From IMG/VR virus record IMGVR_UViG_3300012942_000004, positions 1 to 58,954 of that record: a stretch of DNA of 58,954 nt; one strand, 5' to 3'. Positions 11,053-57,931 of the stretch are shown piece by piece. Source of the stretch: a virus (Duplodnaviria > Caudoviricetes). Below the pieces are notes generated by a model. It saw nothing but the letters and a program-made list of their open reading frames with translations. It was not told where the DNA came from and made no database searches. The position numbers and the translations under genes were made by a program. Within the stretch, counting starts at the first letter, position 1. The number at the start of each line of letters is the position of its first letter.

Positions 11053-14000
11053 TTAGTACCTCCCCTGGTTGCCAGCCTTAGCCGCTCCACGACGGGATGC
11101 GTTGTAAATGGCCGTATCATCTAGCATAATATGATTCACAACCTCCCGAGACAGTGCCCGCAGTGAGGTGGGGCCGAGTTCCACGATTCCGGTTGTCCCA
11201 CCTGACGGCGCGGCAACAGCACGCGGAGTTCCACCACCGGCAAAGGTTCGCACGCGTCCGCGGTTCAGGGCGTCCATGAATCCGTCACCATACTTACGGA
11301 CGGCAGCGGCGCGAATGACCCACTCGTTTCTGGAAAGCATCGTCGGAACCGAGTCGGAGGTCTCGCTACCGGGACCGTTGATCTTACCACCTGCGGCGCG
11401 GAATCCCCAGTATGCGGAACTACCCGGCGCTGCCGTGTTGTGCTGGTTCACGTACACCTGAACCTCACGATACTGATTCCGCGCGAGGAATGCGTCCAGT
11501 TGACTCTGCGCAGCGCCGGTCGCGGCGGATACCGACATGGGAATCTTCTTGTTGGAGTAGGCGTCGAGGAAGGAGTTTATCGTCCCCATTGCGGGCTTCG
11601 TGTCAGCCTTTGGTTTGAGTGGGTTCCCCTTGAGTTGCAGGTTGAACTGCTGCATAATCGTGTCGATGGACACACCAGCCTTCATTGCTTTTGTGATCGC
11701 ATCCGCTGTCTTTCCGCCGACCTCCTGACCGCCCGCGGTCATCAAAACACCACTGGCCAGAACCTGATCGGCCATAGCCTGCCCGGCGAGATCGGCGTTC
11801 TTACGCATTGCGGCAACGTAAGCCTCGCCCTGTTTTGGTGCAGCATCGGTCAACTGCTGAAGAATGCTATTCTCCGTAGCCGAGTAACCTGCCTGAATAA
11901 ACTGCTGGGCAACATCTTCACCATACCTTGCCGCAACAATCTTCAGATTGTTGTTCCAGGTCTGGAGAGACTTGTTGTTTGTATTGTATTGTTCGGTCAG
12001 CGCGGACAGCGATACGGCCTGATCCTTGTTCTGTGCCGCTAGATACTGAGAAACACTCTGACCAGCCTTGGCCGCAGCCGTGGCGTTCGCCTGTGCCTGT
12101 TGAACCTGTTGAATTGCACTATTGAGGTCAGTAAGGGGCTGCACACTCTTGGCATACGCTGCGCCGAACTTTTCAATGTCGTCAACGCTCATTTCGGTGG
12201 CATCTGCAAGCTGGGAGATGAAGTCGCTGGTCACACCGGTTGCCTGAGCGAGTTCGCCCTGCTCTGCCTTGGCCTCCTTCAGGGCTGCTGTGTATTTGGA
12301 GAACTCGCCATTCACTGTGTCGATGCCCCGTCCGGCCTCCTTGGCACCCTTTACGGCCGTATCAAAGATGTCGGCTGCTTTGAGCGTTTGACCGTTCTTG
12401 ACCATGTTCGCCATGGCCTTGTCGAGATTCTGAACGTCCTTAGACAATGGGCTGATGTTCAGACTTCCGAACAGGTTATTGAGGTCGTTTCCAAACAGAC
12501 CAGCCATGTTTGAGTTGGCACCCAGAACGGCCTGAAGCTGCTTTGAGCCAGAAAGCTTGGAGATGTCGGGAATCTTTATTCCAACGCGACTAAGCTGTGC
12601 CATCTTGGCAAAGCCGTCAGCCCACTGCTGGATTGCACCACCAAGGTCCTTGCCGAGTGCACCGGCACCCTTCTTGGCTGCGTTCTCAAGGTCTTTGGTG
12701 GTCTTGATGACACCCTGCGCTTCATAGACCCAGCCAGCCAACCCCGAACCGATCTCAATGCCAGCGAATACGATTCCGGCGATGGTAAGGGCCTTGAGTG
12801 CCACACCAGCAGCCTTGATTCCAACCGCGGCAACCTTACCGGCGGTCCCAAGGGTCCCCAGTGCTTCAGTGAGCATCCCGCTGACGGTTGTGGAGGTAAT
12901 CTCGGCACCCGTCAGGCCGACAATGGATCGCGTGAGTGCGATGATTCCGGCAATGGCAATGGCGCTTCCGCCACCCACAAGGGAAAGTACGCCAAGAAGG
13001 CCCGTGAACCCGGCAACAACGGCGGCTATGACCTGAACAACAGGGTTGCGTGCAAGCTCATCGAAACGCTTCAGGATGTCTGTCAGCCATGAAGCAATGC
13101 CACCGGCCGCGCCCCCGGAGACGTTCCCAAGGTCGGCCAAGAGGACCTGGAAAGTATTGCTCAGAACCTTGATCTTTGCAGCGGTCGTGTCTGCGATCTT
13201 GTTGTACTGCGTATTCAACACAGCGGCAGAGCGGAATGCGTCAGCCGAGGTCTTGATCAGGGAAGACAGCAGTTTACTTGCCGCACCCAGGTTGTTGAAC
13301 ACACGCTGGTCCTGAACACCGGTCAGGCCGATGTCACGCAGAACCTGGTTGACGGCACCCGCCTGGGGCTGAATATCGTGCAGCCCCTGGATGAACTTGT
13401 CGAACACACCGGCAAACTTGTCAGTTCCAAAGGTCTTACGAACGGTATCGGCGGAGACGCCCGCGGTCTTCGCAAAGGACGACAGGCCAACGTTGGACTT
13501 GGAAATGTCCGTTTGCAGATTGGACAAGAACCGCGTGATCGAACCTGATGCTGCCTGCACCTGTCGCGCACCAGAGCCAATAGAACCCAGGGCACCAGAC
13601 AGGGCAATAAGCTGGGGAGCGGTGAAACCAGACGTTCGCGACACACCGGCAAGGGCGGATGCGATCTGGGCGATCTGCTTCTCTGTTGCGACCGAGTTGA
13701 TGCCCACAGCGAGAACGGCGGAGGCCAGGTTCTCAAACTTGCTCGCCGGAAGGTCGGTCATTTCCTGGAATCGACCCAGAAGCGTTCCGGCTTCCTCCGC
13801 AGAGAGGTTCGTGGTCGCGGTCAGCTTGGCGACGACGGACGTGAAGTCAACGATGTCACCTGATGCGATGCCCAACTGTCCACCGAGTGAGGCAATCTCA
13901 GTAATGTCCGCAAATGTTGCTGGAATCTGCGTGGAAAGGTCTTCCAGCGAGCGCATCATGTCGCCCGTTGCGCCAGTCACCGTGCGAGAGACCTGGGCAA

Positions 14001-27704: not shown

Positions 27705-29276
27705 CTACCAAGGGAAGTCGTCGTCCACGGCGTACTCGGGAAGCCTGTCCAGCACCTCCTCGGGTGCAATCACCTTACTCGCTCCCGGAAGTGGTCCGTC
27801 CAACCACGACAGGTCCATCGTCGCGTAGATCACTGCATCAAGGTGGTCAGGGGACTTCAGCCCCTCCTTACGCATCTGCCTCTTCGGTGTGATCTGCAAT
27901 GCGTTGCGGTTGTTGTAGTCGTATGTCTGTGCGATCAACTCCTTGCGCAGTTCATCTCCACACTCGTCGCCGTAGAAGTCCAGGTCGATCAACCCGGCGC
28001 TCATCTGTCTCAGGAAGTCGTCGTATGACCACGACTTCAGCCTATTCCAGCGCGTCTCGTCGGGAGAAGACCATGCACCCTTCACCATGACGAAATCGTA
28101 CGGCTTGGATGCGAACTCGTCCATAAAGCGCAGATTCTGGGCGACGCCACCACCCTCACCGGATGCGTCGATACGCATCTCAGCGGCACCGGTCTCTAGT
28201 GCCAACTGGTGAATCGCACGGGCACCATCCACCACGTTCATCTCGCCCCACGACTTCAGAAAGCGCACTCGGCCACCACGGTTGCCGTACACAATCGTCT
28301 CGTCGGTACCGCTGAGCGCAATGTCCACGCCCAGGATCAGCGGCTCGAACGGGTCGTCCTCGATCTCCGTCTCCATCGCCGTGTTGATCGCAACCTGAGA
28401 GAAGAACGTGTTGTCTGCTGCGTCCGGGAACTCCCCCAGCACTTTCGATTGCCACCGGGCGGAATCCTCGCCCCACTGCGCCCGCCACGACTCCACCGTC
28501 TCCGGGTCCTGCATGCCCGAGTGCAACATCGCGTACTGTCGCTCCGGCTCGTCAGGGTAGACGGCCTCGCCGGTGAACGTCGGCAGGTCGAATGCGGAGA
28601 TCGTGTGGAGCTTCCAGAACTTCTCGTTTTCCGGATTCAGCCACAGGTCGTGGAAGAATGTGCCGCGTAGGTCGGGATTTCCGATAGCCATGATCTTATG
28701 GTCACCACTACCGGTCGTCACAGCCTCCGCCGCAGTGAACAGGTCTCGGGGCACCGATCCGGCTTCATCGATGAACACCGCCGTACCACCGTCACGACGA
28801 ACACCCTGGAATGAGCCGACGATATCCTTGTCCTGTGGCTTGCGACCCACGGCGAGCGTCTGGCCACCGGGGTCTTTCCACTCAAGATTCTGGTTGATGT
28901 TCCCGGGCAGAATCAGGTCACGAGCCTTTGCCGCCGAATAGTTCATCTGCAAATAGGCGAACACCACAAGCTTGATGTGCTGCAATGTAGGCGCTGAGAT
29001 GATCGCAATGACCTCGCCGGGGTCGTGCACCGACACCCAGTGGCTCACCAGGTCTGCAACAAGGTACGACTTGCCCGTACCGTTCGCGCTCCGCACCGCA
29101 GTGCGCGGGTTCGAGATGTAGTCATGTGCGATCTCCGCCTGCTTAGACCACCACTTCTTTCCCAGGACATCGTTGACCCACGCCTCCGGGTCACGCTTGT
29201 ACAACACCGACCTGGACTTGCTGGCCCACTCATCCAGGACATCCGGAAGGATATCTGTTAGGAAGTTACTGCTCAA
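27705..29276 (-). CDS. terL: terminase large subunit
   Basis: Walker A SANGTGKS, Walker B FIDEA, IGNP, nuclease LGVDIA and SPDHLDA. Confidence 0.96.
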   Translation of the reverse strand: MSSNFLTDILPDVLDEWASKSRSVLYKRDPEAWVNDVLGKKWWSKQAEIAHDYISNPRTAVRSANGTGKSYLVADLVSHWVSVHDPGEVIAIISAPTLQHIKLVVFAYLQMNYSAAKARDLILPGNINQNLEWKDPGGQTLAVGRKPQDKDIVGSFQGVRRDGGTAVFIDEAGSVPRDLFTAAEAVTTGSGDHKIMAIGNPDLRGTFFHDLWLNPENEKFWKLHTISAFDLPTFTGEAVYPDEPERQYAMLHSGMQDPETVESWRAQWGEDSARWQSKVLGEFPDAADNTFFSQVAINTAMETEIEDDPFEPLILGVDIALSGTDETIVYGNRGGRVRFLKSWGEMNVVDGARAIHQLALETGAAEMRIDASGEGGGVAQNLRFMDEFASKPYDFVMVKGAWSSPDETRWNRLKSWSYDDFLRQMSAGLIDLDFYGDECGDELRKELIAQTYDYNNRNALQITPKRQMRKEGLKSPDHLDAVIYATMDLSWLDGPLPGASKVIAPEEVLDRLPEYAVDDDFPW

Positions 29277-32766: not shown

Positions 32767-32978
32767 TGGGCGCCATAAGGATGTTTCACTTCTCGTGCGA
32801 TGCCGACATCCGCGGATTCTACGACTGTGAGATAGACACGGGAGACGAATGGTACGCGTCCGCCGCGCGTCAACAGGCCCTCAGCGACGGTTGGCACCTT
32901 AGCGGTAGCGAGATTGCCATCTGCCCGGCATGCTGGGAGCACGGGGCGCGGTTCAAGAACCTTAACCCCGACAACTAG
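32766..32978 (+). CDS. small Cys-containing protein
   Basis: CD...C and GW...ICPAC motifs. Confidence 0.65.
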   Translation: MGAIRMFHFSCDADIRGFYDCEIDTGDEWYASAARQQALSDGWHLSGSEIAICPACWEHGARFKNLNPDN

Positions 32979-33047
32979 TCGAAACGCCCGCTAGTCGGGC
33001 GTCGCGTACGGATTGACCACCTACGTCTGATGAGACAGGTCACAATC
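32978..33047 (+). ncRNA. type II hammerhead ribozyme
   Basis: GTC-GAAA-CGCCCG/CGGGCG-TC(cut after 33003)-GCGTA/TACGT-CTGATGA-GAC; loop I TGACC can pair with 3' GGTCA; intergenic. Confidence 0.85.
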
Positions 33048-39736: not shown

Positions 39737-41377
39737 ATGCCAACATCCACAAGAGAATACATCTCTGTCAGCATCCCGGATGCGGTTCGGAGATTCAGCG
39801 ATGCGATGGAGAGCCTTTACCCTACTATTTCGACAACAGATTTTGAGCCGTACTTCGAGCCTGTCGGTCTTGCGGATAACCTGGTCGAGTTCCTGGGTGG
39901 AGCGATCACGGTCACAGAAGCTGCCGCGATCAAGAGGGAATGGTACAACGTTCGTCGCGCGCAGTTCCTTAGCTCGAACGCCGAGGAGCGCACCACGATT
40001 GGGATCAACTCTTTCGCTCGATTTCTTGCGGCGAACAGCATCCACATGGAAAGCGATATCGTGTACTGCACGTGCTGCGTGTCCCATATTCGCTTCTCTC
40101 TTATTGTCGAAGGCGGTCGTAACGCGCAGATTCTCAACCTGGGACTCAGGACGCCGGTTCGTGCACGCATTCCGCATTTCGGCCGGGCCTTTGTGGAGGG
40201 CTTCGAGGAGATTTTCGCCCCGATTCTCGGAACCCCACCCCGGGTTGTACGAGGTGGAGCAAGACTGGCTGCGGCAGCGCGCTACCAGCGGCTTCAGCGG
40301 CGCAACAACTGGGGACAGTGGTCGATTCTGGCAGAAAACCACATTCCCCGTCGCGAACTGGCCAAGCCGCGTTCTTCGACAGGGAATTTCACGGCCTTCA
40401 TTGAGGAGCGCAGTGATGTCATTGCGAAGGATACGCGGAATATCATCGACATGATGCCGATCTCCCCGCATGGTTCACTTGCCACCCGCAGGTGGGGCAT
40501 CGAGGTGGAGTGCGTTGCGTCCCAGGGGGTTGAGCGACCGTCAGGGTGGAATCGCAAGTACGACGGGTCGCTTTCCGGCGAGCATTATGTCCCCGACGAC
40601 CATGGTCCCACGAAGATGTTCACCATCGACCCTGTCAATTGCCCCGCACACGACCACTCCGCGTGGTACCGCGAATACTACTCAAGCAGATATGTCGAGC
40701 CAGAGAATTGCGAGTTCTGCGGTGAAGTGGAGTTGACGCAGCGTCAGTACGACGATATCACGAACGACAACGTGGACACGACAGATGGTGCTGCGGAGTT
40801 CGTCTCTCCGATCCTTTCCAGCTATCACTCCCGCGGACTTGAGTCGCTGTTGGAGCAGATCGCGCTACGCCCCTCGAATACGACTCCGGGCATTCACGTC
40901 CACGTCGATGCTGCCGACCTGAACGCGAAGCAGGTTGGTGCCGTGGTGTACCTGTACGGTCTCCTTGACCAGTACCTTGAGCCGCACTACCGGCGTGAAG
41001 AGCGCGAGTACTGCAACTCGTGGGACCCGGCGTGGGTCGCGGACGCCGTCAAGAGCGCCAAGAAAGTTACCCGCAAGGAGAACGTCACATACCCGACGCG
41101 GTACGCGACTGTGAACCTTCAGGCGCTGGAAGATCATGGCACGATCGAGTTCCGTGCGATGGGTCCCGTGTACGCGGAAATGAACGCGGCTGACTCGTAC
41201 CTGTACCTGGTTCGGTGGGCGTCGTTCGTTCGTGAGATCGTCCAGGTTGCATCCAGCGGCGTTCCCATGAAAGAGTTGAACCGGATCAAGAATGTGGACG
41301 ACCTGATCGACATCTTCATCAAGTACGGCAAGGAGTACAACCGGTCGCTTGAGGTCAGCAACGCATACGAAGAGTAG
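39737..41377 (+). CDS. COOH-NH2 ligase-type amidoligase (Amidoligase_2-like)
   Basis: WGIEVE, YDGSL, AEFVSPIL, GIHVHV, RYATVNL and GTIEFR motifs. Confidence 0.88.
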   Translation: MPTSTREYISVSIPDAVRRFSDAMESLYPTISTTDFEPYFEPVGLADNLVEFLGGAITVTEAAAIKREWYNVRRAQFLSSNAEERTTIGINSFARFLAANSIHMESDIVYCTCCVSHIRFSLIVEGGRNAQILNLGLRTPVRARIPHFGRAFVEGFEEIFAPILGTPPRVVRGGARLAAAARYQRLQRRNNWGQWSILAENHIPRRELAKPRSSTGNFTAFIEERSDVIAKDTRNIIDMMPISPHGSLATRRWGIEVECVASQGVERPSGWNRKYDGSLSGEHYVPDDHGPTKMFTIDPVNCPAHDHSAWYREYYSSRYVEPENCEFCGEVELTQRQYDDITNDNVDTTDGAAEFVSPILSSYHSRGLESLLEQIALRPSNTTPGIHVHVDAADLNAKQVGAVVYLYGLLDQYLEPHYRREEREYCNSWDPAWVADAVKSAKKVTRKENVTYPTRYATVNLQALEDHGTIEFRAMGPVYAEMNAADSYLYLVRWASFVREIVQVASSGVPMKELNRIKNVDDLIDIFIKYGKEYNRSLEVSNAYEE

Positions 41378-41450
41378 ACCAGAAAAGCTACAACCGAAAA
41401 GTAGATAAAGAACGTCGCCTTTGTGGTGACAGAAAAGGAGGAAACCAAAT

Positions 41451-42611
41451 ATGTGTGGACTGGGATTTCTGAGTCTGACAAGTGAGAGTACGATCAACCC
41501 GCGAGATTTCACGCACGCGTTGTTGTACGAAATGGAAGACCGCGGATACATGGCGGCTGGATACGCGTACGGTCGAGAGGACGCGGTACCGCGTTACTAC
41601 AAGGACTCGGTCCTGGGTCGTGATCTTGATCTGCGACGCATCCCGACGCATGCTCGTAGTGTGGTCATGCACACGCGGCTTGCAACACACGGTGACGTCA
41701 GCGACAACCGGAACAACCACCCGGTTCTCTCGCCGGACAAGACGATTGCGCTTGCCCACAATGGCGTCATCTGGAACCATGATGATGTTCGCAAGCAGTT
41801 GCCGTACGAACTTCCCGACGTGGACTCGGCCGTTCTTCCGGCGCTGATTCAGGACCAGGGCGTCTCGGGACTTCGGAAAGTGTCTGGGGATGCGGCAATG
41901 CTGTGGCTGGACGCGCAGACCGGCAACGTGATTCACGCGGCACGTCAGGAGCACTCACCACTGTGTCTTGCCGTTCTGGAAGACGGTTCCATGGCGGGCG
42001 CGTCTACGTGGCAGATTCTGTCGAACGCGCTGGACACGATGAGGCTGCAAGCGGTCAGCATGGACTTTCTTGAGGAGTTGCAGTACGTTCAGATTCTGAA
42101 CGGCGAGATCGTCCTGGACCAGGCGCTTGAGCGCAACGTCGGCTTCCACTACGGGTTTGCGGCGTCCACGCGTGGGGCGACTTCTGGCGGAACAGGGTTC
42201 GTCTCGACTGGTTCGTCTTTTTACGACGACTGGCCGGTCGAGGACGACGACATTCCGGACGATTTCACCGACGACCTATGGGGTCGAGAGATTCACGACA
42301 GGGGCGACACGCAGGCGAACTTTTACACCACCGACTACTACGGAAACGAGTTGGTGTTCAACGAGTTCAGCCAGTTGTGCCTGACGCTGGCTTGGTATTC
42401 CGGATTGCACTACGCGGACCCGTTCTGGGAGAACGTGGACGACGACGTGAAGTGGATTGAGCACTTCTCCGACATTGGCGAGTTGACCAAGGACGGACAT
42501 GAGTTGTCCTGGATCAACTTCCCCGACATGCTCAACGGGATCGAGAACAAACCGTCGTGGATTCACGAGGGAATTGGGTACTTGCGTCAGTTGGAAAGGG
42601 CGAGCGCGTGA
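41451..42611 (+). CDS. class II (Ntn) glutamine amidotransferase
   Basis: N-terminal MCGL, RG..AAG, HTRLATHG, NNHP, AHNGVI and VDSA. Confidence 0.92.
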   Translation: MCGLGFLSLTSESTINPRDFTHALLYEMEDRGYMAAGYAYGREDAVPRYYKDSVLGRDLDLRRIPTHARSVVMHTRLATHGDVSDNRNNHPVLSPDKTIALAHNGVIWNHDDVRKQLPYELPDVDSAVLPALIQDQGVSGLRKVSGDAAMLWLDAQTGNVIHAARQEHSPLCLAVLEDGSMAGASTWQILSNALDTMRLQAVSMDFLEELQYVQILNGEIVLDQALERNVGFHYGFAASTRGATSGGTGFVSTGSSFYDDWPVEDDDIPDDFTDDLWGREIHDRGDTQANFYTTDYYGNELVFNEFSQLCLTLAWYSGLHYADPFWENVDDDVKWIEHFSDIGELTKDGHELSWINFPDMLNGIENKPSWIHEGIGYLRQLERASA

Positions 42612-54802: not shown

Positions 54803-55180
54803 ATGAGAGCAACTTTTACAGGGAACGTCATTCGCGAGCCGGAGGTATGGCACCTGGCATCGGGTTCTCGTGTCAAGGAGTTTACCGTGGCCGACAATGA
54901 GCGCCGCAAGAACTCGGACACTGGTGAATACGAGAACAGTGGCCGCACGAACTTCATCCGGGTCAGCCTGTGGAACGACAACGCCGACTTCGATGTCGTG
55001 AAGGGTGACCTTGTGTCGGTCGAGGGAACCGTGTACGAGCGCACCTACGAGAAGAACGATGGAACCACCGGACGTTCCCTTGAGACGACGTTCGTGGACG
55101 AGATTTCGATCAAGTTCCCGAGCAAGGATCGAGACCCGGCACAGTCCAAGAGTGGCTTCGAGGACGACGCTCCGTGGTAA
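54803..55180 (+). CDS. ssb: single-stranded DNA-binding protein
   Basis: GNVIREPE, FTVA, F.RVSLW, KGD.V.VEG and acidic tail DDAPW. Confidence 0.93.
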   Translation: MRATFTGNVIREPEVWHLASGSRVKEFTVADNERRKNSDTGEYENSGRTNFIRVSLWNDNADFDVVKGDLVSVEGTVYERTYEKNDGTTGRSLETTFVDEISIKFPSKDRDPAQSKSGFEDDAPW

Positions 55181-55189
55181 ACTGAAGGC

Positions 55190-55461
55190 AACCGCGTCAC
55201 CCTTCCCGCGGTATAGGAAAGTAGGCAGGGAAATTGAGGGGCATCTTTCTCCGGAACGGTGCAGTCGGTTACATCGCTGGTGTGTAACTTCCACTTCATG
55301 CGGCATATTCTAGATAAAATCCGCTAGCCGGTATCAAACAGCAACTGGGGTAGGCACTCCTTCCTTGTTTTCGATCTCGGTTGTTGACCACGGGAAATCC
55401 ATCCCGGTTTGGAAAACGGATACCCGCACCTGATCCAAGATAGGGTGGGCCGGGTGCGGGT
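55190..55461 (+). ncRNA. candidate structured RNA(s): run of hairpins, two with CU-rich loops
   Basis: GGTAAACT -10 at 55176-55183; stems 55191-55212, 55241-55262, 55268-55288, 55339-55386 and 55422-55461; G:U pairs favour the + strand. Confidence 0.5.
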
Positions 55462-55465
55462 TTGG

Positions 55466-55545
55466 GGGCCTAAATTGGTTTCGACGGTAACAAAGACCGC
55501 ATGTCGGAATGTTATCGGAGCAGAGTTCAAATCTCTGTAGGTCCA
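55466..55545 (+). ncRNA. minimal tmRNA-like RNA (tRNA-like domain only, no tag ORF)
   Basis: Acceptor GGGCCTA/TAGGTCC+A with G3:U70; stemless D-loop AATTGGTTTCGAC; P2 GGTAACA/TGTTATC; GGAG linker; T-arm CAGAG-TTCAAAT-CTCTG. Confidence 0.8.
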
Positions 55546-55548
55546 CGT

Positions 55549-55607
55549 ACTGAGGTGATTGGCATAATCAAACGGCACCGTAGCCGCGCCGGTTGCCTCA
55601 GTTTTTC
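55549..55607 (+). terminator. long G:U-rich hairpin with U-tract (terminator or further ncRNA)
   Basis: ACTGAGGTGATTGGC/GCCGGTTGCCTCAGT 15 bp, inner CGGC/GCCG hairpin, then TTTT. Confidence 0.55.
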
Positions 55608-55678
55608 TTACTAGAGTGAACGTTATACGAAACCAGGGGCGCATAGTAGACTAGAGAGATTCACAACGAGAGGGATTT

Positions 55679-57931
55679 GTGAGCACGTACGATGATTGGT
55701 TCCAGTTCGCATTCTCTGACGCCTCTGGATTCATCTATCTAGACTCCCTCAAGGGCGACATCTCGTCCTACATGTGGCCCGTCAAGCGCGCGGAACTCAT
55801 CGACCAGGTTGAGTGGACCGCAGCGGCTGGTCTCTACTTCACACCCCTCACCTACACTGACGGTCGTATTGCACACAACGATGACGGCACCGTTACCACA
55901 GGTCGCCGCAAGGAGAACGCAAAACAGGGTTGCGTGGTCTTCTGTGACGCTGATACTGCACCCCCGGACTCGTTCCGACTGAAGCCTTCCGCCATCGTCC
56001 AGTCCTCCCCGGGTCGCTGGCAACTCTACTGGAAGCTCGATGCCGCGTATCCGGCCGACGACATTCTGGAAATCGCCAAGAAGATTTCCATCGCGCACCT
56101 GAACGAGGGCGCTGATATCTCATCCAGCCAGGGCAGCAAGCTCATGCTGGTTCCCGGCTCGCGAAACGCGAAGGTGAGGGACGGCGTTTTCGTCCACAAG
56201 GACCTCCCTGTCGTCACCGTAGAGTATACGGGTGTTGTCTATTCAATGGACACGCTAGCCAAGGCATATGCCGACGTTTCGGTTGAGCGCCCACGGAGCG
56301 TCGAGTACGACTCGGTTGAGGTTCCGGACCTTCTTGAGTTTCTTCCCATCTTTGACCGTCTTCCCGAAGAATCCATGGGCGGCTCCCAATTCTCCGACCT
56401 GATCTTCACCGAGCCGTGGAACATGCGTGGCAGCCGGGTGGGCGACAGGAGTGCATACCGGTACCGCCTTCTGTGCGAGCTTTTCCGGGAGAGGCTTTCG
56501 GCACAAGAGGTTCTGTCGGTTGCGTGGAACGCGAAGAGCAACAAGTGGAAGTCCGACCCGCGCGGCATACGTGGCTTCTGGGAAACCGAAGTCCTCAAGG
56601 CCCAGGCCGAGATCAATCTAGAGTTTCAGACCGGCCAGACCGCGCAAGAGCGTGAGCTTGAGGATGGCGTCAACCTCCTCGACACCGAAGAGCGTGACCT
56701 TGCAGAGTCGGACGTGAACTTCATCGTCAGTTACCAGGACTGGGCCGCAAATCGGCTCTCCCGCGCGAACCTGCCATACCACAGGCTGAACGCGTGGATG
56801 CTTCTGTCGGCCGCATATGGCGAGCATGCCACCATTCCCGACGAGGATAAGAATGTCCCGCTGAACTTCTTCGGGATGATCGTTGGCGAGTCTGGAACGG
56901 GTAAGGGAGAGGCGAAGGCCTTGTGGGGCGAAGCCCTTGAGGAATGCCTAGACGGCGGCTGGCATAAAGAAGGGTCGGCAAACATTGGGGCGAATGCTTC
57001 AAACAACGCGTTGACCGAGGCCTTGATTGAGCGTGACGGCAAAGTCTCCGTGCTCAACAACGACGAAGCGCACGGTGTGTTGAAGATCATGGCGGAGCAG
57101 CAGTGGACCGCTGGCGGTTTGGAATTGTGGACCGACCTGTACGACGGTCAGGTTCCCTCGATGCTGCGGCGTGGCAACAAGGATGTCTCCGGCAAACACG
57201 CGACCACCTGCTTCCTGGTGTGGATGCAGGGAACGTTCATCGGCATGACGGCAGCCATGAACCCAGACATGTTCTACTCGGGCTTCCTGGGGCGCTTCAT
57301 CTGGGCAGTGGGTGAACCGCCGCTACAGACGCGTGAATCCATGATCCGGCGTCACCGCAAGGCAACCACAGCATTGCGGAAGATCGACCCGACAGTGAAG
57401 CAGTGGGCCGGAGACATGTCGCGCAATCGCGCCAGGCTGAAGTCGATGTATGGTGGCGAACGTGTTCCCATCGAGTTCACCGAAGAGGCCGAGGACCGCA
57501 TGGCTCAGGCCAACTGGGACATGTTCCAGGCCGTCCAACGGCGACAGAACTCGGCACTTCTGGTGACGGCACAACGACGTATGGCTCTCTCCCTAGACAA
57601 GGCTGCGGCCCTTTTGGCCGTACACGAAGGGGCACGAGCCGTTACGTTGCGTCATGCTATTCTCGCAATCCAAGCCGCCGAAGAGTGGTTTGCGAACCTG
57701 CTGCAAATGGCAGACTCCATCGCCCTTTCCGACTGGGCACGTGACACCGAGAAGGTCATGCAGTTCATTGAGGACGAGGGGGGTATCGTCTCGGAGGTTC
57801 GGATCAATTCGGAGTTCCGCTCGATTCGCAACGACATTCGTAGTAGACTTCTGGACGACCTGAAGGGGCAGGCCAGGATTCGAGAGACGCGCATCAATGG
57901 CAAGCAGAAGGCATGGGAAGTACCAAGGTAG
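55679..57931 (+). CDS. primase-helicase (RepB-type AEP primase plus P-loop domain)
   Basis: VFCDAD, IVQSSPGRWQLYWKL and LVPGSRNAK; Walker A GESGTGKG; Walker B NNDE. Confidence 0.85.
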   Translation: MSTYDDWFQFAFSDASGFIYLDSLKGDISSYMWPVKRAELIDQVEWTAAAGLYFTPLTYTDGRIAHNDDGTVTTGRRKENAKQGCVVFCDADTAPPDSFRLKPSAIVQSSPGRWQLYWKLDAAYPADDILEIAKKISIAHLNEGADISSSQGSKLMLVPGSRNAKVRDGVFVHKDLPVVTVEYTGVVYSMDTLAKAYADVSVERPRSVEYDSVEVPDLLEFLPIFDRLPEESMGGSQFSDLIFTEPWNMRGSRVGDRSAYRYRLLCELFRERLSAQEVLSVAWNAKSNKWKSDPRGIRGFWETEVLKAQAEINLEFQTGQTAQERELEDGVNLLDTEERDLAESDVNFIVSYQDWAANRLSRANLPYHRLNAWMLLSAAYGEHATIPDEDKNVPLNFFGMIVGESGTGKGEAKALWGEALEECLDGGWHKEGSANIGANASNNALTEALIERDGKVSVLNNDEAHGVLKIMAEQQWTAGGLELWTDLYDGQVPSMLRRGNKDVSGKHATTCFLVWMQGTFIGMTAAMNPDMFYSGFLGRFIWAVGEPPLQTRESMIRRHRKATTALRKIDPTVKQWAGDMSRNRARLKSMYGGERVPIEFTEEAEDRMAQANWDMFQAVQRRQNSALLVTAQRRMALSLDKAAALLAVHEGARAVTLRHAILAIQAAEEWFANLLQMADSIALSDWARDTEKVMQFIEDEGGIVSEVRINSEFRSIRNDIRSRLLDDLKGQARIRETRINGKQKAWEVPR

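What the first reader, a model, noticed from the sequence alone, without database searches (positions are those of the whole stretch)
55466..55545. Tag-less 80-nt mini-tmRNA: alanine tRNA-like domain with the whole mRNA-like domain missing
Seen: the element has tmRNA rather than tRNA hallmarks. These are a 7-bp acceptor stem with G3:U70 and discriminator A, a stemless D-loop ending GGTTTCGAC, a 7-bp P2 helix, a GGA-N linker and a canonical T arm. Only 17 nt (AAGACCGCATGTCGGAA) lie inside P2, where tmRNA has pseudoknots and the tag ORF. CCA is not encoded. Known: G3:U70 is the AlaRS identity element, SmpB binds this domain, and tag-less tmRNAs occur in some protist mitochondria. Inference: the phage RNA may be alanylated and bind host SmpB. 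It could then free stalled ribosomes without proteolytic tagging, titrate SmpB to block trans-translation, or decoy anti-phage tRNA nucleases. With both ends present and no integrase, it does not look like an attP fragment of ssrA.
Basis: partly seen in the sequence, partly recalled or inferred. Interest (0 to 1): 0.88.

Follow-up and report, generated by a model that had tools for sequence, protein, structure and literature searches.

The report
Phage tag-less mini-tmRNA gene
This phage carries an 80-base gene that copies only the alanine-accepting, tRNA-like end of the bacterial ribosome-rescue RNA (tmRNA), a form already published for one phage but present here in well over a hundred phage sequences, and it likely lets the phage compete with the host's rescue-and-tag system.

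Summary
Real, and a new member of a known kind. Window 55466-55545 (+) folds as a tmRNA tRNA-like domain: G3:U70 acceptor stem, A73, stemless D-loop, T arm and a capped P2 arm, with no tag frame. The same 80-nt architecture is in mycobacteriophage DS6A, published as 'TLD only' tmRNA. A model trained on 17 other viral copies scores the window 62.9 bits and DS6A 56, against at most 17.6 for tRNAs. Two scans gave 152 distinct copies; the 2025 curated database lists 9 standard tag-less tmRNAs. In a set chosen without acceptor or D-loop constraints, G3:U70 and A73 are kept in 70 of 70 and three SmpB-contact bases in 62-64 of 66. The SSB-primase site is shared with related actinophages. This genome has no smpB and no integrase. 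Most likely it is an alanylated, host-SmpB-bound competitor of tmRNA that lowers ssrA tagging (0.5); tag-less rescue or Ala-tailing is the main rival (0.22). Expression was not shown. This scan found the same class before on other DNA (e.g. e1-9758280).

The parts
55466..55545 (+). mini-tmRNA gene, G1 to discriminator A73 (80 nt; about 83 nt if CCA is completed)
   Evidence: 62.9 bits, E 8e-13 on a model that excluded it
55466..55472 (+). acceptor stem 5' strand; G3 at 55468
55473..55485 (+). stemless D-loop; U17 and G19 equivalents (SmpB contacts in E. coli numbering) at 55481 and 55483
55485..55517 (+). truncated P2 arm: P2a (7 bp plus closing C-G), A-rich bulge, 3-bp inner helix 55497-55499/55505-55507, loop CAUGU
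55518..55520 (+). linker GAG (A334 equivalent at 55519; most family members have GAC)
55521..55537 (+). T arm, 5-bp stem and 7-nt loop
55538..55546 (+). acceptor 3' strand with U70 (55542), A73 (55545) and encoded C74 (55546); no encoded CCA
55422..55461 (+). strong hairpin ending 4 nt before G1; role unknown
   Evidence: z -4.55
55549..55606 (+). 15-bp hairpin (55549-55602) followed by a U run; terminator-like or 3' processing trailer (inferred)
   Evidence: z -4.11; one search lists terminator-like sites within it
54803..55180 (+). upstream gene: single-stranded DNA-binding protein
   Evidence: phrog_44, E 1.5e-21
55679..57931 (+). downstream gene: DNA primase(-helicase)
   Evidence: phrog_10514, E 2.7e-139

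Best explanation
The element is a phage gene for a stand-alone tmRNA tRNA-like domain of the DS6A type, which is likely charged with alanine, likely binds the host's SmpB and EF-Tu, and would then compete with host tmRNA and lower ssrA tagging during infection. Shown: the structure, its covariation, the family's breadth, near-invariance of the AlaRS and SmpB-contact bases, and no smpB or integrase gene in the phage. Inferred: (1) it is transcribed with the SSB-primase operon and cut out like a tRNA (RNase P at G1, 3' trimming, CCA completed by the host); (2) AlaRS charges it through G3:U70; (3) it binds host SmpB; (4) it both uses up SmpB and enters empty A sites of stalled ribosomes ahead of tmRNA, donating Ala but no tag frame. 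The net effect would be less tagging and degradation of proteins made on broken mRNAs.
For: DS6A has the same 80-nt layout and scores on the same model. PMC4131195 and PMC11915505 report that this form inhibits tmRNA in E. coli, 'perhaps by titrating SmpB' (Mao et al. 2009, seen only as cited). G1-C72, G2-C71, G3:U70 and A73 are present in 70 of 70 unbiased copies while pairs 4-7 covary, and G3:U70 and A73 in 14 of 14 copies of the window's pentaloop subtype. U17 is kept in 64, G19 in 62 and A334 in 64 of 66; these are SmpB contacts in the cryo-EM paper PMC8363625. No smpB in this genome or in 46 of 46 carrier contigs, so any SmpB partner must be the host's. A TLD fragment plus SmpB enters ribosomes and transfers Ala in vitro (PMC3929946, PMC2481249). 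The three bacterial genomes with a copy also keep a full ssrA.
Against: No transcript, charging or binding was shown. The published inhibition came from expression in E. coli and occurred whether or not the RNA was chargeable, so it does not explain why G3:U70 is invariant; that invariance fits a role inside the ribosome at least as well. No sigma-70-type promoter was found in 55000-55800. When 55420-55620 or the whole intergenic region is folded, the minimum-energy structure loses the acceptor stem and T arm, although 55466-55610 keeps them. The window departs from family consensus at position 335 (G; C in 62 of 66). The copy in the closest cultured relatives (WaterT group) has a divergent D-loop and linker. 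The gene is patchy: 6 of 80 primase-related loci, absent from phage Lifes. Why less tagging would help a lytic phage is not established.
Confidence: 0.5

Rival explanations
1. Tag-less rescue or Ala-tailing. The charged RNA with SmpB would take over nascent chains on stalled ribosomes, add one or several alanines without a template, and speed recycling by drop-off or hand-over to other rescue factors. It would add rescue capacity rather than block it.
For: Template-free polyalanine synthesis by TLD plus SmpB in vitro (citing Shimizu and Ueda 2006). Invariant charging determinants. The P2 arm is 28-31 nt in 71 of 96 copies and holds an inner helix in 71 of 85 long copies against a shuffled mean of 25.6, which suggests a shape constraint; P2 crosses bridge B1a during translocation. 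Tag-less mitochondrial tmRNAs are thought to help with incomplete mRNAs. tRNA genes lie beside it in 19 of 60 loci.
Against: Without a stop codon there is no evident release step. The one in vivo result for this form is inhibition. Short copies (59-68 nt, 11 of 96) lack the inner helix.
Confidence: 0.22
2. Counter-defence decoy or back-up. The RNA would absorb, or be immune to, a host anti-phage nuclease or sensor that targets tRNA or tmRNA.
For: It often sits inside phage tRNA arrays. It has no anticodon loop to cut. Its patchy distribution is typical of accessory counter-defence genes. That phage tRNAs counter host tRNA cleavage is recalled, not from a call.
Against: No linked nuclease or defence gene among 87 neighbouring proteins. 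A decoy does not obviously need both AlaRS and SmpB determinants. No paper showing this appeared in search.
Confidence: 0.12
3. Processing signal only. The tRNA-like fold would be an RNase P and 3'-nuclease mark that cuts or stabilises the SSB-primase mRNA, and the released RNA would be a by-product.
For: It lies on the sense strand between two replication genes, flanked by hairpins. CN1A has a different small tRNA-like fold without G3:U70 at the same site.
Against: Processing does not need G3:U70 or SmpB-contact bases, yet these are the most conserved positions. Gene neighbours vary widely: head genes, replication genes, tRNA arrays.
Confidence: 0.08
4. attP remnant or decaying piece of a captured ssrA gene.
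For: ssrA is a common integration site and ssrA fragments occur in prophages (PMC9004378).
Against: Both ends are present, with compensatory pairing. No tyrosine integrase or resolvase in this genome. A tyrosine integrase occurs in only 4 of 46 carrier contigs, each more than 10 kb from the element. An attP-type case, phage Validus, has only the 3' T-arm fragment next to its integrase and no model hit.
Confidence: 0.03

Closest known systems
TLD-only (CDS-less) tmRNA of mycobacteriophage DS6A (JN698994 28478-28557; tmRNA Website tmID 11587; PMC4131195, PMC11915505)
   Same: 80 nt, G3:U70 acceptor, A73, stemless D-loop, P2a, A-rich bulge, CCG-CAYG-type capped inner helix, T arm, no tag frame, no encoded CCA.
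   Different: Sequence is only about half identical (global score 40 of 80). Linker GAG against CAC, 5-nt against 4-nt inner loop. Here it lies between SSB and primase in a phage with no integrase; DS6A has a tyrosine integrase 9.6 kb away.
Standard one-piece tmRNA (SsrA, Rfam RF00023), including full-length phage tmRNAs such as Bxz1's
   Same: Same 5' and 3' tRNA-like domain, same D-loop and linker motifs (38 full-length genes).
   Different: About 270-290 nt missing: no pseudoknots, resume codon, tag frame or stop codon. RF00023 and ARAGORN do not detect the window's copy.
Tag-less organellar tmRNAs (jakobid and oomycete mitochondrial mt-tmRNA, RF02544; about 65-bp Mallomonadaceae plastid genes)
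   Same: tRNA-like domain without a tag frame.
   Different: Those are the organelle's only tmRNA and most are permuted (72 permuted against 9 standard CDS-less entries). This one is one-piece and would meet a full host tmRNA. No RF02544 match.
tRNA-Ala
   Same: G3:U70, A73, acceptor stem and T arm.
   Different: No D stem and no anticodon arm. No RF00005 or ARAGORN call; tRNAs score at most 27 bits on the family model.
RqcH/RqcP Ala-tailing (ribosome-associated quality control)
   Same: A possible functional analogy only: template-free C-terminal alanines (search listing).
   Different: RqcH works on split 50S subunits with tRNA-Ala; nothing here is homologous to it.

Membership tests
DS6A-type TLD-only tmRNA | 7-bp acceptor stem with G3:U70 and A73 | tested here: met
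DS6A-type TLD-only tmRNA | Stemless D-loop and short linker with SmpB-contact bases (U17, G19, A334) | tested here: met
   position 335 is G instead of the usual C
DS6A-type TLD-only tmRNA | P2 closed into a short arm, no tag frame | tested here: met
   17 nt inside P2a
DS6A-type TLD-only tmRNA | Scores with DS6A on one covariance model trained on neither | tested here: met
   62.9 and 56.0 bits; tRNAs at most 17.6
DS6A-type TLD-only tmRNA | Discrete transcript, alanylation, SmpB binding, inhibition of tmRNA | not testable with these tools
   no RNA run was listed; biochemistry needed
Standard tmRNA (RF00023) | tRNA-like domain | tested here: met
Standard tmRNA (RF00023) | mRNA-like domain with tag frame and pseudoknots | tested here: not met
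Two-piece (permuted) tmRNA | Acceptor piece encoded before the 5' piece, with an intervening sequence | tested here: not met
   standard 5' to 3' order; no permuted-form match
mt-tmRNA (RF02544) | Match to the family model | tested here: not met
tRNA (RF00005) | D stem and anticodon stem-loop | tested here: not met
ssrA-derived attP site | One-ended ssrA fragment beside an integrase | tested here: not met
   contrast Validus

The most novel reading that the evidence does not exclude
Phage mini-tmRNAs are a widespread, unannotated class of charged A-site substrates that use host SmpB to add template-free alanine tails to stalled nascent chains on 70S ribosomes: a phage-encoded, RNA-only branch of ribosome quality control that diverts stalled products from ssrA tagging.
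Probability: 0.2. Interest if true: 0.8.

Novelty: new member of a known kind. Interest (0 to 1): 0.45.

Why it matters
The form is published, but as a single phage curiosity: the 2025 tmRNA database holds 9 standard CDS-less entries and 79 phage entries among 97,179. Here two pattern scans alone gave 152 distinct viral copies, missed by ARAGORN in the 60 loci tested, so many phages appear to act on host ribosome rescue. The family also makes an open question testable: what a tag-less tmRNA does in a cell. Cultured phages on ordinary laboratory hosts carry it unannotated (LuckySocke on Streptomyces lividans, Tomas, Jojan60), and the WaterT group versus Lifes is a natural with-and-without pair for a longer variant.

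Tried and rejected
ARAGORN at default settings found nothing; at lowered thresholds it gave only noise. Rfam tmRNA, tRNA and mt-tmRNA gave no match; these negatives pass through filters, and RF00023 did score three bacterial copies at 43-66 bits. blastn of the intergenic region against phages gave only chance hits, and of the element against E. coli genomes nothing. The primase as a single-protein query found no viral locus; an alignment found 293, of which 80 were kept. RNA runs: no RNA holder was listed, which is no evidence either way. The promoter scan found none. The MAFFT alignment A1 misaligned the 5' stem and was not used. A first regex test of the inner helix (21 of 85) was badly specified and was replaced by the shuffle test. 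The genome-collection pattern was too loose: 3 of 121 loci were minis, and most others with a T stem were 3' ends of full tmRNAs, so the 8400 estimate is not a count of minis. ARAGORN's one tmRNA call among 60 loci (L015) ends in the mini; I read its 5' part as not tmRNA-like. CN1A, CMP1, Amigo, Lifes, ISF9 and Yappy have no model hit at E 0.001. Mao et al. 2009 could not be opened. The one supplementary file of PMC11915505 held as text gave no hit for 'Phage', 'no CDS' or 'DS6A'; the database itself was not seen and may hold further phage TLD-only entries among its 9. Serine integrases were searched only in the window's genome.

Full report
Observation. The window is a complete 58,954-bp virus record with direct terminal repeats. 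At 55466-55545 (+) the sequence folds as described (z -2.55): a 7-bp acceptor stem with G3:U70 and A73, a stemless D-loop ending GGUUUCGAC, a 7-bp P2a (8 with the closing C-G), a GAG linker and a canonical T arm. The 17 nt inside P2a form an A-rich bulge, a 3-bp helix and a 5-nt loop. Only C74 of CCA is encoded. The pattern has 0 hits in 300 Markov resamples of the window.

Setting. The element lies on the sense strand between an SSB gene and a primase gene. The primase's best relatives are in Clavibacter, Arthrobacter, Streptomyces, Curtobacterium and Microbacterium phages. The major capsid protein is 68% identical to that of Microbacterium phages of the WaterT group. The host is therefore probably a member of the Microbacteriaceae (inference; family name recalled). 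The genome has no SmpB, tyrosine integrase or resolvase match. Strong hairpins flank the element: 55422-55461, and 55549-55602 with a U run. No sigma-70-type promoter was found. Folding 55466-55610 keeps the tRNA-like fold, but folding 55420-55620 or the whole gap does not.

Precedent. PMC4131195 (passages) lists 'Mycobacterium phage DS6A (TLD only)' and says a similar molecule, chargeable or not, strongly inhibits tmRNA, perhaps by titrating SmpB. PMC11915505 (passages; section 12 part 1) repeats this and counts 9 'standard, no CDS' and 79 phage sequences among 97,179. Mao et al. 2009 was not available. I located the DS6A element at 28478-28557: 80 nt, with the same bulge and capped inner helix.

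Family. A pattern that demanded sequence motifs but no pairing returned 120 viral stretches, with about 610 estimated in the collection. Of these, 116 of 120 have a 7/7 acceptor and a 5/5 T stem, against 1.3% for a 7/7 acceptor with random flanks; 96 are unique, 96 of 96 have G3 and 23 of 96 encode CCA. A gap-free alignment of 17 of them shows changes on both sides in 17 of 22 pairs and in all four helices; 0 of 500 shuffles reach this, and slid controls drop to 38-50% pairing from 95.5% (the structure was derived from these sequences). A model-fitted alignment of 105 matches agrees (it leans towards the model and includes five weak non-family matches). A model from the 17 scores the held-out window at 62.9 bits, DS6A at 56.0 and Jojan60 at 79.4, with annotated tRNAs at most 17.6.

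Unbiased test. A second scan demanded only the inner motif and GTTC. It gave 122 matches; 32 were dropped for an imperfect T stem (two of them still look like members), leaving 71 unique, 70 with a 7/7 acceptor (one is DS6A itself; some overlap the first set). G1-C72, G2-C71, G3:U70 and A73 are present in 70 of 70 while pairs 4-7 covary. In the 66 of 70 with a clear P2a register, U17 is kept in 64, G19 in 62, A334 in 64 and C335 in 62. PMC8363625 (passages) names A15, U17, G19 and A334 as SmpB contacts. Position 15 is mostly U (48 of 66), as in the two named actinobacterial tmRNAs shown. For the window's pentaloop subtype, 28 loci gave 19 unique sequences, 16 with a T stem and 14 with a full acceptor, all 14 with G3:U70 and A73. 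The inner helix is present in 71 of 85 long copies where it was not demanded (shuffled mean 25.6, maximum 36 in 200), and the P2 arm is 28-31 nt in 71 of 96. The two main sets hold 152 unique copies. A -10-like hexamer lies 11-13 nt before G1 in 16 of 148, against 1-8 in other 3-nt windows, a modest sign that some copies have their own promoter.

Context across phages. ARAGORN found tRNA genes beside the element in 19 of 60 loci and did not call the 80-nt element on its own in any. Of 133 flanking ORFs listed, 87 were scanned; they are replication, head, packaging and lysis proteins, with no integrase among the families shown. In the 46 longest carrier contigs SmpB occurs in 0 (0 of 22 near-complete) and a tyrosine integrase in 4, each more than 10 kb from the element. 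Phage Validus shows what an attP-type fragment looks like: the T arm and 3' end only, next to an integrase, with no model hit. Among 80 loci chosen by primase similarity, 6 carry the element on the same strand 0.3-0.65 kb upstream of the primase match and 26 have tRNAs there. Four of the 6 have a T loop that my patterns cannot match, so the counts above are lower bounds. Jojan60 has it at the same site. WaterT and LeeroyJenkins have a 99-nt G3:U70 variant there, with a longer P2 arm and a divergent D-loop (30 bits); Cassita and BarnCat share the stretch; Lifes lacks it. LuckySocke (81.8 bits) and Tomas (52) carry it unannotated in tRNA arrays. In bacterial genomes 3 of 121 pattern loci are minis, and each of those genomes also has a full ssrA.

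Mechanism. Shown: structure, conservation, breadth and the lack of a phage smpB. From the literature: G3:U70 directs AlaRS; SmpB binds the D-loop and linker; a TLD fragment with SmpB makes polyalanine without mRNA in vitro (PMC3929946 and PMC2481249, passages; the original was not seen); the DS6A-like form inhibits tmRNA in E. coli. Inferred: tRNA-like processing from the operon transcript, charging, SmpB and EF-Tu binding, and competition with tmRNA for SmpB and for empty A sites. I put a net fall in ssrA tagging at 0.5. Pure titration would not need charging, so the invariant G3:U70 points either to entry into the ribosome or to stabilisation by charging; this keeps tag-less rescue or Ala-tailing at 0.22. 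Decoy (0.12), processing signal (0.08) and attP or relic (0.03) fit less well.

Novelty. The window's element is a new member of a published kind. I found no paper describing the form as widespread in phages (searches, open-access library only). PMC9004378 (passages) counted phage tmRNAs with ARAGORN, which missed this form in the loci tested here. Earlier notes of this scan reached the same reading on other genomes; I had stated my reading before opening them, and they are not independent support. No note exists for this genome. Interest 0.45: real and experimentally tractable, but precedented and without functional data.

Noticed in passing
window 32977-33044 (+): Type II hammerhead ribozyme match, 37.9 bits against a gathering score of 37, between two ORFs.
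   Followed up: no
window 55181-55465: The gap upstream of the element holds several further hairpins, e.g. 55339-55386 and about 55267-55288; possibly another RNA or a replication-origin element.
   Followed up: partly
L499:2794-2892 (-), phage WaterT 42293-42391: 99-nt G3:U70 tRNA-like element with a long P2 arm and a divergent D-loop and linker at the SSB-primase site, unannotated; shared by LeeroyJenkins, Cassita and BarnCat, absent from Lifes.
   Followed up: partly
L124, about 12550-12605, phage CN1A: Very small tRNA-like fold (acceptor plus T arm, encoded CCA, G3-C70) just upstream of the primase.
   Followed up: no
L126, phage Jojan60: The record names Stenotrophomonas as host but has WhiB and actinophage-type genes; its four tRNAs are annotated on the strand opposite to the one on which they fold.
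   Followed up: no
L420, L421, L422, L475: Members with T loop UGCAA(C/U) and a D-loop with AG in place of GG.
   Followed up: no
L265, L312, L328: Minis in bacterial genome assemblies (a Spirochaetaceae MAG, an Actinomycetota MAG and one more), each with a separate full ssrA; prophage or chromosomal origin not checked.
   Followed up: partly
L380:1453-1523, Roseobacter phage DSS3P8: Unannotated 71-nt G3:U70 element in a tRNA array, 27 bits on the model; possibly a short, divergent member.
   Followed up: no
window 39737-42611: Amidoligase and glutamine amidotransferase gene pair.
   Followed up: no
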